DNA of 64,000 bases, taken from the NCBI RefSeq assembly GCF_050920415.1, contig NZ_CP169309.1; one strand, written 5' to 3'. Both the position numbers and the translations under genes were made by a program. The notes under the pieces were generated by a model that saw only the letters and a list, made by a program, of their open reading frames with translations, had not been told where the DNA came from and searched no databases. Source of the DNA: Escherichia coli. Its GTDB lineage: Bacteria > Pseudomonadota > Gammaproteobacteria > Enterobacterales > Enterobacteriaceae. This document shows positions 1,680 to 6,184 of this stretch, one piece after another (the stretch's first letter is position 1; the number at the start of each line of letters is the position of its first letter).

Positions 1680-1772
1680 TTACGCTGGTTAACAATTCGT
1701 GCTCTTAATAATACCAGGCATATCAGGCTGATAAGCGTAAAAAAAACGTTTTACATCAGTAAGATTATTATA

Positions 1773-1792
1773 TACTGTAAATATAAACAGTG
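1773..1792 (+). promoter_or_regulatory. LexA (SOS) box tACTGT-N8-ACAGtg
   Basis: Sequence tactgtaaatataaacagtg fits CTGT-N8-ACAG consensus; lies ~45 bp upstream of the small ORF/DinI-like pair. Confidence 0.55.
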
Positions 1793-1833
1793 GTTATACA
1801 TACAGCATTGCGTGTGGTGTCATAGGAGGAAAG

Positions 1834-2022
1834 ATGCAGGACTATTTTTTGGAGTCTTTGAAGCTCCAGCGCATTGATTTTTTTCTTAAGCTTGTAGCGG
1901 CTAGTGAGTGTAGTGATGAAGAGAAGGGGCTGGCTCTGCAGTGGGTTTCTGAATTGACTGATGAACTCATGGCAAAAATCAGAAGCCACGAATACAACCG
2001 CTCAATGGATGTCATCAGCTGA
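1834..2022 (+). CDS. small hypothetical protein, possible Tum-like antirepressor N-terminal part
   Basis: 62 aa ORF with ggagga RBS 6-8 nt upstream; follows LexA box; overlaps the DinI-like frame by ~60 nt in a different frame. Confidence 0.45.
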   Translation: MQDYFLESLKLQRIDFFLKLVAASECSDEEKGLALQWVSELTDELMAKIRSHEYNRSMDVIS

Positions 2023-2032
2023 GGTGACTTTT

Positions 2033-2266
2033 ATGCGCATTGAAATAATGATCGATAAAGAGCAGAAGATTAGCCAGTCTACCCTGGACGCCCTTGAATC
2101 CGAGCTTTACCGCAATCTGCGCCCCCTGTATCCCAAAACGGTAATCCGTATCCGTAAAGGTAGCTCTAACGGTGTGGAACTGACCGGACTGCAACTGGAC
2201 GAAGAAAGAAAACAAGTGATGAAAATTATGCAGAAGGTGTGGGAAGACGACAGCTGGCTGTATTGA
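2033..2266 (+). CDS. DinI-family protein (damage-inducible, RecA modulator-like)
   Basis: 77 aa starting MRIEIMIDK...; conserved DinI motifs (MRIE, LDAL..EL, WE..W near C-terminus); gagg RBS before ATG 2033. Confidence 0.75.
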   Translation: MRIEIMIDKEQKISQSTLDALESELYRNLRPLYPKTVIRIRKGSSNGVELTGLQLDEERKQVMKIMQKVWEDDSWLY

Positions 2267-2321
2267 TTTTGTCAATAGACGCTTGTTTTTACTAATCAAA
2301 AAGGGTTACATATGAGTGAGA

Positions 2322-2352
2322 GGCGATGTCAATCAGATATCGCCTTGTTTTT
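2322..2352 (+). terminator. putative rho-independent terminator after DinI-like gene
   Basis: ggcgat...atcgcc stem followed by ttgtttttt. Confidence 0.35.
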
Positions 2353-2379
2353 TGTCAAGAAAAGAATAATAGGCTAAAA

Positions 2380-3057
2380 ATGAAAATTAATAATGTAGCG
2401 TTACCAATATCTCTTGCTGTAATCCTAACTGGTTGCGTGCCACATGCTTCTAACCGAAATATCACTGCTATTGAAGTGGTGAAGCCTGCTATTGGGCAAA
2501 GTGCTACCGCCTACATGGGCGATCCCATTATCACATCTGCTACTGGATTTAAAACGGACGTACTAGAACTTGGTGCGGCTAATGGTGCATTGTCTTCTAT
2601 CGCTGCTGGTACATATTGCAGTGAGGGGAATGGAATTTACCGCAATTATCATAACCCTCAAGCTGTTGCGTTAAAAAATCTCTATGGGCAAATCGGTAAC
2701 TATGTTGATTATGTTAGTTACGATGCTGCAAAAAATGAGATATCACCGCCAAATGGTACTTCTTATACTGCATCAGAAATTTCTATCAAACGTGTTCCTG
2801 ATGGGCTGTGTCGAGTTAGTAACTCATTGGTTAAGACTATCGAATACAATGGAAATGCAGGCGGTGTAATGAAGTTCACCTATCGTGAATTTGCAAACGA
2901 TATGGCTCGTGCAGCATTTACAACAGATTTTTCTGTAGATTCTAAGGGAAGTGACGTTATCGCTTACAAAGGTGCCAAGTTCAAAGTGAACAAGGCTGAT
3001 AACTCGTCTATTTCTTATACAATTATTTCTGGCTTTGACAAGGCTGTCACGTTCTAG
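2380..3057 (+). CDS. orphan lipoprotein (225 aa), unknown function
   Basis: Signal peptide MKINNVALPISLAVILTG followed by Cys (lipobox LTGC); AT-rich relative to phage backbone; ORF-track start 2326 trimmed to ATG 2380. Confidence 0.6.
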   Translation: MKINNVALPISLAVILTGCVPHASNRNITAIEVVKPAIGQSATAYMGDPIITSATGFKTDVLELGAANGALSSIAAGTYCSEGNGIYRNYHNPQAVALKNLYGQIGNYVDYVSYDAAKNEISPPNGTSYTASEISIKRVPDGLCRVSNSLVKTIEYNGNAGGVMKFTYREFANDMARAAFTTDFSVDSKGSDVIAYKGAKFKVNKADNSSISYTIISGFDKAVTF

Positions 3058-3161
3058 GTTTCACGCTTACTGAGTATGTTACGATTTTGCACATTCTGCA
3101 TAAGCGCGCATGTCTATGCTGCATGAGATCGCATGATCGTTTGAGGATCTTTTGTGTTAAG

Positions 3162-3186
3162 GCCCGCCAGTTCTGGCGGGCTTTTG
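3162..3186 (+). terminator. rho-independent terminator
   Basis: gcccgcca-gttc-tggcgggc hairpin followed by ttttg. Confidence 0.55.
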
Positions 3187-3230
3187 CGTAGATCATGCAG
3201 GTGCATGAAAACCACTACATAAAGCGGGCA

Positions 3231-3250
3231 GGCGTGGCGGGGATACGAGC
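3231..3250. other. candidate cos (cohesive end) site of P2/186-like phage
   Basis: ggcgtggcggggatacgagc resembles the GGCG(A/T)GGCGGGGAAAGCA(C/T) cohesive-end sequence of P2/186 as I recall it; lies between the accessory region and the portal end. Confidence 0.3.
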
Positions 3251-3374
3251 GCGCGCTCATGGTTGAATTAATGAAATTATGGTGTTAAATAGGCTAGCTT
3301 TTTAAGTCGTGAATATTTGTCAACGCCAAGATTATTGGCCGTTTTTCGCCATTTTTAATGTCCGCTATTGGTCA

Positions 3375-4167
<793 letters not shown>

Positions 4168-4171
<4 letters not shown>

Positions 4172-5338
4172 AACAGCTCCTCATAGGCACTCAACGGCCT
4201 GTGTTCCACCTGACTGACCTGCTGCCAGAGTGGGGCGTGATGCTCCGGCACGGTCTGCCAGCCGTATACAGCCGAACAGAGACGGTGCGATGCTACCTGT
4301 TGCTCATTACTGTAGATCCGCAGTTCATCATCCAGCGAGATCCGTATTGATACCGGCTGGCCACACAGGCTTTCCGGCACGCTGTAACGGTTCCCGCCAA
4401 CCTCGATATAGCCATCCCAGGAGACATGACGGATATCGAAGTAGCTGGTATCGAAGTCCGTACCTGGCAGCGCCTGCAGATGCACCTGTTCCTGCGTGAA
4501 GCGCTGTTCCGGTGTCTGCCTGAACTGGCGAAGTCCCGCCTGTCGGCAACGTCAGCCATCCACTGCTCCAGTAGCTGATTAACATGGGCGAAGCTGTCGA
4601 ACCGGCGGTACCGGACGAAGAAGTTTTCCTTGAGGTATTTCACCATCCGTTCCACCTTACCTTTGGTTCTGGCCCTTCGTGGACGGCAGGCCCGTGGCAG
4701 GAAGCCATAGTGATGGCCAGCAGCAGGAACCCGGAGTTGAACACCACCTTCCCGTTGTTATTTTTCAGCACTGCGGCTTTCTGGTTATCGACCAGCACGG
4801 TTTTCACGCTGCCGCCGAAGTAGCGAAAGGCGCGGACCAGTGACTCATAGGTATGTTCAGCATCCTGCTTTGGTGCCGCGAAGACATGGAAGCGACGTGA
4901 GAACCCCAGCGTATTAACCGCGAAGTTAACCCTGCATCGTTGCCCGGCAACCTCAGCCTCAACTTCTCCCCAGTCATGCTGTAGCTGGTAACCGGGCTGA
5001 GTTTCGAAGCGAACCGTTTTCTTCGATGGCCGCATCTTACGTTTGGGCTGGATGTAGTAACGCAACATGGAACGGCCACCGGTATAACCCATCGCTTTGA
5101 TTTCCGCCAGGATGACCTCGCCGTTCCAGACATTCTCAGCCAGACGCATGTCGATATAGTCCATGAACGGCTTGAGTTTGGCCATTTTGTGGCGTGTTTT
5201 TCTGGCCGGAGGTTCCGGGTATTTCAGGTACCGTCTGACAGTCCGCTCAGAGCAACCAACCTGAGTGGCAATATCAACAATATACGCACCTTGCTGGCGC
5301 ATTTGCTTTATCATGTAAAAGTCCTCTCTGCTCAGCAT
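4168..5338 (-). pseudogene. istA: istA (IS21 transposase) split by at least two frameshifts
   Basis: Three consecutive ORF fragments (4640-5338, 4293-4655, 4168-4485) together cover an IstA-like protein. Confidence 0.6.
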
Positions 5339-5485
5339 GAGTGTTCCCTTTGTGGTGTAGGAACCTTAAGGAAACAACATGTTGGGTGGAGCGGACAATC
5401 CAAATGGTGAATTACTGTCTTATATCATTGGCGCTGACATATTCAATTTTTCAACTCATTTTTTTCATAGGGAGGAGTAATTGAC

Positions 5486-6184
5486 ATGGTTATGTTAGTG
5501 GATGACTGTCCACGATGTGGATCACAAAAAATAGCGTTTGATGTTAATGGGCTGAATTGCACTAGGGTTTACAATGCATTGGGCGGGGGTAAAACATACG
5601 AGTACGAGGTCTATTGTGTTTGCCGAGAGTGTCATAAAACGACAATGTTTCTTTGCAGACCTTTAACGAAAAATAAAACTTTAGATGGCTATAATTGGGA
5701 AAGTGGAATATTCGGCTTAAAGGAAGTTGCAGAGGTTGTTAGGCCTATATCACCGGCAGACTTAGCAGTAGAGGAGCCACCAGAGTTCTTACCTGAGCAT
5801 ATCAATAGTGCATATGAGGAAGGGGCGAAATGTTTGGCTATAGGTTGTTATAATGCAGCAGCAACCATGTTTAGGCTTTGCCTTGATTATGCCACAAAAG
5901 GACTTCTTCCTGATGGGGAGCAAGGGCCTGCGCAAAAAATAAGGAGAAGCCTAGGGTTAAGAATGGAGTGGTTATTTGATAATCATCTACTGCCTGAAGC
6001 TTTAAGGGAACTAGCTGAATGCGTTAAAGATGACGGAAATGATGGAGCGCATGAAGGTATTTTGGATAAAGCTGCTGCTGAGGATCTTGAAGATTTTACC
6101 TATCTTTTTTTAGAACGGCTTTACACTGAACCTCAACGCCTTATCGAAGCCAAGACAAGGCGTGAACAAAGAAGAAACAAATAA
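5486..6184 (+). CDS. orphan protein with N-terminal 4-Cys zinc ribbon and C-terminal DUF4145-like domain; candidate phage-encoded defence/abortive-infection gene
   Basis: CPRC...CREC motif at N-terminus; C-terminal region with LAECVKDDGNDGAHEG signature typical of DUF4145 as I recall it; agggaggag RBS; AT-rich; sits between IS21 and the portal gene. Confidence 0.6.
   Translation: MVMLVDDCPRCGSQKIAFDVNGLNCTRVYNALGGGKTYEYEVYCVCRECHKTTMFLCRPLTKNKTLDGYNWESGIFGLKEVAEVVRPISPADLAVEEPPEFLPEHINSAYEEGAKCLAIGCYNAAATMFRLCLDYATKGLLPDGEQGPAQKIRRSLGLRMEWLFDNHLLPEALRELAECVKDDGNDGAHEGILDKAAAEDLEDFTYLFLERLYTEPQRLIEAKTRREQRRNK

What the first reader, a model, noticed from the sequence alone, without database searches (positions are those of the whole stretch)
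2380..3057. Orphan 225-aa lipoprotein in the tin/old-equivalent slot
It has a clear lipoprotein signal (lipobox LTGC) and no recognisable domain, and sits where P2 encodes its superinfection-exclusion genes. Phage lipoproteins in such slots often block receptors or DNA entry of other phages. It is followed by its own terminator.
Basis: partly seen in the sequence, partly recalled or inferred. Interest (0 to 1): 0.55.

Follow-up and report, generated by a model that had tools for sequence, protein, structure and literature searches.

The report
Prophage outer-membrane lipoprotein of unknown function
The gene is real and encodes a lipoprotein carried as an optional extra by a P2-family prophage of E. 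coli, but it is not an orphan: it belongs to a large, unnamed family found mostly on phages and plasmids, whose function (possibly keeping rival phages out) has never been tested.

Summary
The ORF at 2380-3057 (+) is real and encodes a 225-aa lipoprotein precursor (lipobox LTG|C19, Val at +2, so probably outer membrane). It is under strong purifying selection (dN/dS 0.03-0.15).

"Orphan" is wrong. It is 100% identical in 24 Klebsiella P2-like phages, 99% identical to Fels-2 STM2726, and matches PHROG 1353. At least 1,456 clusters (50% identity) of ~220-aa lipoproteins are related. None has a Pfam or NCBIfam model, a name, or a close solved structure.

About 13 of 15 sampled contexts are mobile elements; two are chromosomal.

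Here the gene is an 843-bp, low-GC insertion between the LexA-controlled orf62/dinI-like operon and the cos site, which I located at 3231-3249. That is P2's tin/old position. An "empty" relative lacks it.

The "own terminator" belongs to the conserved cos flank, not to the insert. The variable defence cargo (DUF4145) lies on the other side of cos, separated by an IS21 insertion.

Function is untested. My best guess is an envelope-level blocker of incoming phages or mobile elements, expressed mainly on SOS induction (confidence 0.4). It is not homologous to Cor, Bor, TraT or GfcB.

The parts
1750..1790 (+). SOS promoter region. It has a perfect LexA box, CTGTAAATATAAACAG (1775-1790), overlapped by a promoter-like TTTACA-17 nt-TACTGT.
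   Evidence: One search gives the exact match to CTGT-N8-ACAG. The box and TTTACA are conserved in Fels-2, two E. coli relatives and diverged alleles L044 and L047. The promoter assignment is my inference, by analogy with the LexA-controlled tum operon of coliphage 186.
1834..2022 (+). orf62, first gene of the SOS operon (Fels-2 STM2728 equivalent).
   Evidence: PHROG 698, unknown function; 97-100% identical in all P2-like loci.
2033..2266 (+). DinI-like gene (Fels-2 STM2726.1/STM2727, PsP3 TumB-like).
   Evidence: PHROG 189, E 1.4e-30, and a weak NCBIfam DinI match. Annotated as DinI family in Fels-2 and E. coli.
2267..3107 (+). The inserted lipoprotein module (about 0.84 kb, ~40% G+C against 53-57% for the phage core). 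It is absent from an otherwise collinear 'empty' prophage.
   Evidence: Alignment with E. coli NCTC11023 (L077): homology stops at 2264 and resumes at 3108. Composition.
2320..2353 (+). Terminator-like hairpin (11 pairs) plus a T-run between dinI and the lipoprotein gene. It probably attenuates read-through from the SOS promoter.
   Evidence: scan; dG -17.1 kcal/mol. L044 carries a compensatory change, GGCGAT...ATCGCC to GGTGAT...GTCACC. It is absent in the 79%-identity alleles.
2380..3057 (+). Lipoprotein gene: 225-aa precursor, mature protein ~21.9 kDa. The signal peptide is residues 1-18 (2380-2433) and the lipidated Cys19 codon is 2434-2436.
   Evidence: dN/dS 0.03-0.15. AlphaFold2 model with pLDDT 91, all-beta.
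3108..3256 (+). Conserved cos flank of the phage backbone.
3231..3249 (+). Cohesive-end sequence GGCGTGGCGGGGATACGAG (cos). The lipoprotein gene is therefore the last gene at the right end of the packaged genome.
   Evidence: Homology to the P2 right end...AAGCGGGCGGGCGAGGCGGGGAAAGCAC. In every P2-like locus that has the gene, cos lies ~177 bp after its stop.
3318..5439 (-). IS21-family element (ISEc62-like). It has inverted ends TGTCAACGCCAA / TGTCAGCGCCAA and a 4-bp target duplication TATT (3314-3317 and 5440-5443). It is not part of the lipoprotein module; it separates cos from the left-end cargo.
   Evidence: Comparison with the uninterrupted locus L031. Annotation of matching copies. istA and istB are broken into several ORFs here, as in the closest E. 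coli copy.
5486..6184 (+). DUF4145-type protein: the variable cargo on the other side of cos, next to portal gene Q. It is not a partner of the lipoprotein.
   Evidence: PHROG 1305 and a weak PADLOC PD-T7-4 match. Annotated DUF4145 in E. coli RM10740. It is replaced by other genes in most loci that keep the lipoprotein.

Best explanation
Shown or strongly supported:
- The gene is a single-gene accessory module of a Fels-2/186-type P2-family prophage of E. coli.
- It encodes a secreted, lipid-anchored, all-beta protein with no enzyme-like motifs.
- It lies at the extreme right end of the phage genome, just after the LexA-controlled orf62/dinI-like operon and just before cos.

Inferred:
- After Lgt/LspA/Lnt processing, the Lol pathway sends it to the outer membrane, because there is no Asp at +2.
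- It is transcribed mainly by read-through of an attenuating hairpin from the SOS promoter. Its level would therefore rise when the prophage is induced.
- In the periplasm or at the outer membrane it binds a conserved envelope component. This blocks adsorption, DNA entry or transfer by other phages or mobile elements. It may also protect the induced cell and its progeny, as T5 Llp and phi80/N15 Cor do.
- It does so using a different, so far undescribed fold.
For: Lipoprotein:
- The lipobox rule is met, and 112 of 144 family members also meet it.
- Cys19 is conserved in 134 of 144 members, and +2 is never Asp.
- Cys80 and Cys144 co-occur, as expected for an exported, disulfide-bonded protein.

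Functional gene: dN/dS is 0.03-0.15.

Accessory insertion:
- It is absent from an otherwise collinear prophage.
- It is present in 49 E. coli genomes against 1,276 with the cos flank.
- Its G+C is ~40%.

Position equals P2 tin/old, within the described anti-phage hotspot (PMC9122126).

SOS coupling:
- A LexA box is conserved upstream of orf62.
- No convincing promoter lies directly upstream of the gene.
- In Salmonella, the STM2726-STM2727-STM2728 group, which includes the 99%-identical orthologue, was up-regulated by the mutagen MX. Fold changes ranged from 14.8 to 2.6, all with p<0.05 (PMC2225428).

Mobile-element carriage as a lone module:
- P2-like phages.
- Prophages with serine recombinases, next to OLD-like genes.
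- ~5-kb Rep-lipoprotein-MobC-relaxase plasmids.
- 95-128 kb IncFIB plasmids with a DnaB-like helicase, likely phage-plasmids.
- A lambdoid early-region insertion.
- An integrase-AlpA-VapE island.
- Three siphophage lineages where it sits between the tail chaperones and the tape measure. N15 likewise carries cor inside its tail gene cluster.
Against: - There is no experiment on any family member. Every relative is 'hypothetical' or 'Lipoprotein'.
- There is no PADLOC hit.
- There is no homology to known exclusion lipoproteins.
- The protein is identical across phages of Klebsiella, Salmonella and E. coli that presumably use different receptors. It therefore cannot simply mask its own phage's receptor.
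- P2-type phages bind LPS, which a lipoprotein is unlikely to mask (my knowledge of P2, not tested here).
- It is the invariant border of the hotspot rather than variable cargo.
- A Brevundimonas homologue lies among core genes such as sucAB, prfB and ispG. Another lies among immunity-like genes on a chromosome-like contig. The family therefore also has a purely cellular role.
- The microarray paper assigned the operon computationally and does not say which gene had the 2.6-fold value.
- SOS-dependent expression would give little protection to an uninduced lysogen.
Confidence: 0.4

Rival explanations
1. It helps the phage's own lytic cycle rather than excluding others. In this reading it is an envelope protein made at induction, or late in siphophages, that conditions the outer membrane or periplasm for lysis, release or particle stability.
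For: It is coupled to the SOS operon that starts induction. In three siphophage lineages it sits inside the late tail operon. It is strongly conserved rather than fast-evolving.
Against: It is dispensable: collinear P2-like prophages lack it, and only 49 of about 1,276 related E. coli prophages have it. It is also carried by 5-kb plasmids and an integrative island that have no lytic cycle. P2-family phages already have their own lysis genes (my knowledge).
Confidence: 0.2
2. It is a lysogenic-conversion factor that benefits the host, such as serum resistance, adhesion or envelope robustness. The models are lambda Bor and plasmid TraT, which are outer-membrane lipoproteins carried by mobile elements.
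For: It is an outer-membrane-type lipoprotein on prophages and plasmids of clinical Klebsiella, Salmonella and E. coli. TraT has a similar size, 243 aa.
Against: There is no homology to Bor or TraT beyond the signal peptide. The family is widespread in marine and environmental bacteria such as Shewanella, Pseudoalteromonas, Idiomarina, Flavobacterium and Planctomycetes, where serum resistance is irrelevant. SOS-linked or late-operon expression is unlike a constitutive conversion gene.
Confidence: 0.15
3. It is an immunity or protection protein against toxins that act in the periplasm, such as type VI effectors, colicins or tailocins. Mobile elements would carry it as an orphan immunity gene.
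For: One homologue lies in a cluster of SMI1_KNR4, DUF4303 and DUF4265 genes. I recall these as families classed as polymorphic-toxin immunity proteins (for the context; the classification is from memory). Many periplasmic immunity proteins are small beta-rich lipoproteins (my knowledge). Small colicin-type (ColE2-like replicase) plasmids carry a homologue.
Against: This rests on a single context. No toxin gene is adjacent in any of the 15 contexts sampled. No similarity to a known immunity family was found by Pfam, NCBIfam, PDB sequence search or fold search.
Confidence: 0.1

Closest known systems
Cor of phages phi80 and N15, and Llp of T5 (superinfection-exclusion lipoproteins that inactivate the FhuA receptor)
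   Same: It is phage-encoded with a lipoprotein signal and is a single-gene module. Cor sits in the tail gene cluster of N15, as several homologues of this family do in siphophages. Expression in the lytic phase is plausible.
   Different: There is no sequence relationship outside the signal peptide (for Cor; Llp was not compared directly). The protein is about three times larger (206 mature residues against ~60, from my memory for Llp and 78-aa precursor for Cor). Its two-part all-beta model has no match in the PDB. The carrier phages include LPS-binding P2 types. No target is known.
P2 Tin and Old (exclusion genes between gene A and the right cos end)
   Same: It occupies the same genome position: last genes before the right cohesive end, optional, and of low G+C.
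   Different: Tin and Old are cytoplasmic proteins transcribed leftwards from a promoter next to cos. This gene is exported, unrelated in sequence and transcribed rightwards towards cos, behind the SOS operon.
TraT (F-type plasmids) and Bor/Iss (lambda): outer-membrane lipoproteins of mobile elements
   Same: It is a lipoprotein cargo of mobile elements. TraT has a similar length (243 aa) and acts in surface exclusion (my knowledge).
   Different: hhalign finds no homology: TraT probability 9%, and Bor matches the signal peptide only. No Pfam family matches.
PHROG 1353 / Fels-2 STM2726 / Klebsiella phage 4LV2017 and ST437-OXA245phi4.2 hypothetical proteins
   Same: This is the same protein: full-length profile match at E 3e-105 and 99-100% identity.
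   Different: None of these entries has a name or a tested function.
GfcB/YjbF/YmcC lipoproteins of group 4 capsule operons
   Different: Profile comparison with E. coli GfcB aligns only the signal peptide, with probability 17%. No Pfam match. No capsule genes are nearby.

Membership tests
Bacterial lipoproteins (Lgt/LspA/Lnt substrates) | Positively charged N-terminus, uncharged hydrophobic stretch, lipobox [LVI][ASTVI][GAS]C, with the Cys at residues 15-35 | tested here: met
   K2, VALPISLAVILTG (mean Kyte-Doolittle 2.2), L-T-G-C19. My script of the PROSITE-type rule passes. Cys is conserved in 134 of 144 relatives.
Bacterial lipoproteins (Lgt/LspA/Lnt substrates) | Actual acylation and signal peptidase II cleavage | not testable with these tools
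   This needs globomycin sensitivity or palmitate labelling, with a C19A control.
Outer-membrane lipoproteins (Lol-sorted, Enterobacteriaceae) | No Lol-avoidance signal (Asp at +2) | tested here: met
   +2 is Val. None of the 134 relatives with the Cys has Asp at +2. Localisation itself is inferred.
Phage 'moron' (extra gene present in some related phages only) | Presence/absence polymorphism between otherwise collinear phages, with deviant base composition | tested here: met
   An empty site exists in E. coli NCTC11023. The gene is in 49 genomes against 1,276 with the cos flank. G+C is ~40% against 53-57%.
Phage 'moron' (extra gene present in some related phages only) | Own promoter upstream | tested here: inconclusive
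   The only consensus-like site (2352-2381) ends after the start codon. A terminator-like hairpin, not a promoter, precedes the gene. The published SOS response of the orthologue suggests read-through.
Phage 'moron' (extra gene present in some related phages only) | Own terminator downstream | tested here: not met
   The hairpin at 3162-3185 lies in the backbone cos flank, which is present without the gene.
Cor (phi80/N15 exclusion lipoprotein) | Homology of the mature protein | tested here: not met
   hhalign of the family profile against N15 Cor aligned only the 19 signal-peptide residues.
Bor/Iss | Homology of the mature protein | tested here: not met
   hhalign against lambda Bor aligned the signal peptide only. 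No Pfam hit.
TraT | Homology of the mature protein | tested here: not met
   hhalign against F TraT gave probability 9% over 28 columns. No Pfam hit.
T5 Llp | Homology of the mature protein; binding to FhuA | not tested
   No direct comparison was run. The PHROG scan returned only phrog_1353 at E<=0.01.
GfcB/YjbF/YmcC | Sequence-profile homology; capsule operon context | tested here: not met
Known anti-phage defence systems (PADLOC-DB 2.0) | Match to a defence-protein model | tested here: not met
   No family matched at E<=0.01.
PHROG 1353 | Full-length profile match | tested here: met
   E 3.1e-105, residues 1-223 on profile positions 1-230 of 230. The family has no function assigned.
Siphophage tail assembly chaperone (considered for the Acinetobacter/Moraxella homologues) | Being the gene pair directly before the tape measure, with no other chaperone present | tested here: not met
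   In L083 the Phage_TAC_1 and Phage_tail_T genes precede the lipoprotein gene. In L074/L075 a 105-aa plus 78-aa pair does. The lipoprotein is therefore an extra gene.

The most novel reading that the evidence does not exclude
This protein is the enterobacterial representative of a large, structurally new family of lipoproteins. Phages, phage-plasmids, small plasmids and islands would have repeatedly captured it from a cellular envelope gene as a single-gene barrier against competing phages, plasmids or periplasm-acting toxins. In P2-family phages it would be wired to the SOS switch, so the barrier goes up at induction.
Probability: 0.3. Interest if true: 0.7.

Novelty: new variant of a known kind. 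Interest (0 to 1): 0.42.

Why it matters
If the family is an envelope-level barrier, it would add a widespread, single-gene and easily testable class to the few known exclusion lipoproteins (Llp, Cor, Ltp, TraT). The known families are narrow in host range.

The identical protein is carried by P2-like prophages of epidemic carbapenemase-producing Klebsiella clones (ST11, ST258, ST437, ST512). It could therefore bear on phage-therapy host range.

Independently of function, there is a family with more than a thousand 50%-identity clusters, a confident all-beta model, and no Pfam entry or close PDB match. That is a clear target for structure and function work.

For this window, the practical outcome is a corrected map of the right end of the prophage. 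It now shows the SOS operon, the inserted lipoprotein module, cos, the IS21 insertion and the left-end defence cargo.

Tried and rejected
- **Two-gene system with the DUF4145 neighbour: rejected.** The two genes lie on opposite sides of cos. The neighbour is replaced by other genes in Fels-2, in other E. coli loci and in most IMG/VR loci. The 232-aa neighbour in a Citrobacter prophage is unrelated.
- **Longer 243-aa reading from ATG 2326: rejected**.
- **Tail assembly chaperone reading of the Acinetobacter/Moraxella homologues: rejected**.
- **Cor, Bor, TraT and N15 gp23 (same length): no homology**.
- **BFVD viral fold search:** nothing at E<=0.001.
- **Pfam on 144 members and on 10 longer relatives with inserts:** nothing.
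- **Search for an own sigma-70 promoter:** nothing convincing.
- **Literature searches by locus tags, accessions and PHROG number:** only the 2007 microarray paper turned up.
- **The search for related loci with the 144-sequence alignment failed** because it has no conserved stretch. It worked with a 35-sequence alignment.
- **Not used:** the genome-contig scan, the second structure job and the metagenome scan.

Full report
**1. The observation**

The ORF at 2380-3057 on the + strand is real: 225 aa, starting MKINNVALPISLAVILTGCVPH.
- It satisfies the usual lipoprotein rule: Lys2, an uncharged hydrophobic stretch, lipobox L-T-G-C, and Cys at residue 19.
- The mature part (~21.9 kDa) has no further hydrophobic segment.
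- An in-frame ATG at 2326 would give 243 aa, and the Fels-2 record uses it. Homologues start at the Met-Lys, and diverged alleles lack an in-frame upstream ATG. NCBI's own annotation of an E. coli copy is 225 aa.
- Pairwise dN/dS between alleles is 0.03-0.15, so this is a protein under purifying selection.

**2. Not an orphan**
- Pfam finds nothing even at E<=10. NCBIfam and PADLOC find nothing.
- The protein matches PHROG 1353 (unknown function) end to end, E 3e-105.
- It is 100% identical in 24 Klebsiella P2-like phage records, 99.1% identical to Fels-2 STM2726, and 98.7% identical in Salmonella phage RE2010.
- A phmmer scan of 1.84 billion cluster representatives gives 1,456 relatives at E<=0.001 and 191 at E<=1e-10. 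Most are 215-240 aa.
- Of 144 full-length relatives, 134 keep the lipobox Cys, and none has Asp at +2.
- None of the 144 matches any Pfam family.
- Every relative with a source name is 'hypothetical protein' or 'Lipoprotein'.
- The most conserved part is the C-terminal ~75 residues. G47 and G158 are invariant. C19, P36, Y156, Y168, E170, R177, D187, N208, Y213 and F219 are nearly invariant.
- Cys80 and Cys144 occur together: 37 sequences have both, 14 have only the first, none has only the second. This fits a disulfide in an exported protein.

**3. Structure**
- AlphaFold2 on the 144-sequence alignment gives a confident all-beta model: mean pLDDT 91, pTM 0.76, 18 strands, with a short tether after Cys19.
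- The viral structure library gives nothing.
- The AlphaFold database returns only unnamed lipoproteins from Gamma-, Beta-, Alpha- and Deltaproteobacteria, Bacteroidota and Planctomycetes.
- The same holds for N15 Cor and lambda Bor. F TraT and N15 gp23 show no relationship.

**4. Local anatomy**

The host is E. coli: pheA-tyrA-aroF further along the window is 99.8% identical to E. coli chromosomes.

The order here is:
- gpA (33-1679);
- a perfect LexA box at 1775-1790, overlapped by TTTACA-17-TACTGT;
- orf62 (1834-2022);
- a DinI-like gene (2033-2266);
- a hairpin plus T-run (2320-2353);
- the lipoprotein gene (2380-3057);
- a conserved 149-bp block (3108-3256);
- an IS21-family element (3318-5439);
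- a DUF4145 gene (5486-6184);
- portal Q and terminase P on the minus strand.

The 149-bp block contains GGCGTGGCGGGGATACGAG at 3231-3249. With its left flank, this is clearly homologous to the right end of P2...AAGCGGGCGGGCGAGGCGGGGAAAGCAC. This is the cos site.

The lipoprotein gene is therefore the last gene at the right end of the packaged DNA, the place of P2 tin and old. DUF4145 sits at the left end, between cos and Q.

**5. It is an insertion, and the 'own terminator' is not its own**
- E. coli NCTC11023 has a collinear prophage with gpA-orf62-dinI-[cos block]-portal and nothing else. Homology to the window stops at 2264 and resumes at 3108.
- The inserted module is thus ~2267-3107. Its G+C is ~40% against 53-57% for the core.
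- The cos block occurs in 1,276 of 5,426 complete E. coli genomes. The lipoprotein gene occurs in 49.
- The GC-rich hairpin with TTTT at 3162-3185 (dG -23.6) lies in that backbone block. The terminator scan did not call it. It may still stop transcription before cos.
- In ~40 IMG/VR P2-like loci the order gpA-orf62-dinI-lipoprotein is fixed, and the protein is usually 100% identical. Meanwhile gpA varies from 92 to 100%, and the distance from the gene to the portal varies by 1.0-3.6 kb.
- cos always lies ~177 bp after the stop.
- So the lipoprotein is the constant border of the hotspot, and the variable cargo is on the other side of cos.
- Rousset et al. list an E. coli allele (WP_139303458) as 'hypothetical' next to HEPN and DUF262 genes. 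They describe the whole gpA-gpQ interval as a hotspot that holds defence systems but also partition systems and a toxin.

**6. Expression**
- I found no convincing promoter directly upstream. The one consensus-like site ends after the start codon.
- The hairpin before the gene is part of the insert. It shows one compensatory change in an 88%-identity allele and is missing from the 79%-identity alleles.
- The LexA box and its TTTACA are conserved in Fels-2, in E. coli relatives with and without the insert, and in diverged alleles.
- A 2007 microarray study of Salmonella TA100 (Fels-2 positive) treated with the mutagen MX lists STM2726-STM2727-STM2728 as one operon. All three genes went up at p<0.05. 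Fold changes ranged from 14.8 (STM2727, also in their LexA table) to 2.6 (PMC2225428).
- The operon assignment there is computational, and the gene with the 2.6-fold value is not named.
- I infer that the lipoprotein is made mainly by partial read-through from the SOS promoter, that is, when the prophage is induced.

**7. Where the family lives**

I sampled 15 independent contexts.

Mobile (about 13):
- P2-like prophages;
- Citrobacter and Pantoea prophages with serine recombinases, close to OLD-like genes;
- ~5-kb circular plasmids with Rep-lipoprotein-MobC-relaxase plus a toxin-antitoxin pair (39% identity);
- 95-128 kb non-mobilizable IncFIB plasmids with a DnaB-like helicase and ParA-like ATPase, probably SSU5/pHCM2-type phage-plasmids by my reading;
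- a Vibrio plasmid, where it follows a small beta-barrel outer-membrane protein gene;
- a Shewanella element with recombinases and a prohead protease;
- a Pseudoalteromonas integrase-AlpA-VapE island;
- a lambdoid prophage, where it points against the early-left operon;
- siphophages of Acinetobacter, Moraxella and an unnamed host, where it sits between the tail chaperones and the tape measure.

Chromosomal (2):
- a Vibrio-like contig, among SMI1_KNR4, DUF4303 and DUF4265 genes;
- Brevundimonas, among sucAB, prfB and ispG, conserved across assemblies.

The family is therefore mostly, but not only, mobile-element cargo.

**8. Interpretation**

The solid part is this: an optional, single-gene, probably outer-membrane lipoprotein module, with no catalytic-looking motifs, kept intact by selection, and picked up by many unrelated mobile elements.

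The most economical function is one that any mobile element benefits from at the cell envelope. I commit to blocking of entry by competitors as the leading idea (0.4). It would be timed to the lytic phase in phages: the SOS operon here, the tail operon in siphophages, as cor is in N15.

Weaknesses:
- There are no data on function.
- There is no homology to known exclusion proteins.
- The same protein is carried by phages with different receptors.
- Some relatives are chromosomal.

Rivals are a role in the phage's own lysis or release (0.2), host-benefit conversion of the Bor/TraT type (0.15), and immunity to periplasm-acting toxins (0.1).

**9. Verdict**

The finding is a real gene and a reasonable candidate. 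It is an already catalogued 'hypothetical' of a large family, not an orphan, and two details of the description are wrong. Interest is moderate. It would rise sharply with one positive phenotype.

Noticed in passing
window 1750-2266: This looks like a LexA-controlled operon of the coliphage 186 tum type. It has a perfect LexA box at 1775-1790 overlapping a promoter-like site, then orf62 and a DinI-like gene. It is conserved in all relatives examined, which suggests an SOS-inducible antirepressor switch for this prophage.
   Followed up: partly
window 3231-3249 (block 3108-3256): This is the cos site of the prophage (GGCGTGGCGGGGATACGAG), homologous to P2 cosR. Cargo is inserted on both sides of it: the lipoprotein on the right-end side and DUF4145 on the left-end side. 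The flank block is present in 1,276 of 5,426 complete E. coli genomes.
   Followed up: yes
window 3318-5439 (TSD TATT at 3314-3317 and 5440-5443): An ISEc62-like IS21-family element is inserted 68 bp beyond cos, adding 2.1 kb to a P2-size genome. Its istA and istB are each split into several ORFs. The closest copy in another E. coli (99.8% identical) is also annotated as frameshifted in both genes. No complete E. coli genome in the collection has this insertion at this site.
   Followed up: partly
window 5486-6184: This is a 232-aa DUF4145-type protein (PHROG 1305, 'DNA binding protein') with a weak match to the PADLOC model PD-T7-4 (E 1.2e-6). It lies 8 bp from the end of portal gene Q. It is probably the actual defence cargo of this prophage. 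It is identical in three IMG/VR loci and in E. coli RM10740.
   Followed up: partly
L063-L066 (about 5-kb circular contigs from E. coli, Salmonella, Klebsiella and Enterobacter samples): Small mobilizable plasmids have a 222-aa homologue of the lipoprotein as their only cargo besides Rep, MobC, relaxase and a toxin-antitoxin pair. Its start overlaps the end of rep.
   Followed up: partly
L005 10457-12277 and L012 3611-5434: OLD-like ATPase/TOPRIM genes lie a few kb from the 55-57%-identity lipoprotein homologues in Citrobacter and Pantoea prophages with serine recombinases. In other words, the lipoprotein sits in accessory/defence regions there too.
   Followed up: no
L069 4447-5678 (Vibrio parahaemolyticus plasmid): A homologue directly follows, with overlapping stop and start, a 185-aa small outer-membrane beta-barrel gene (weak OmpA/AcfA-type matches). 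This may be a two-gene envelope module.
   Followed up: no
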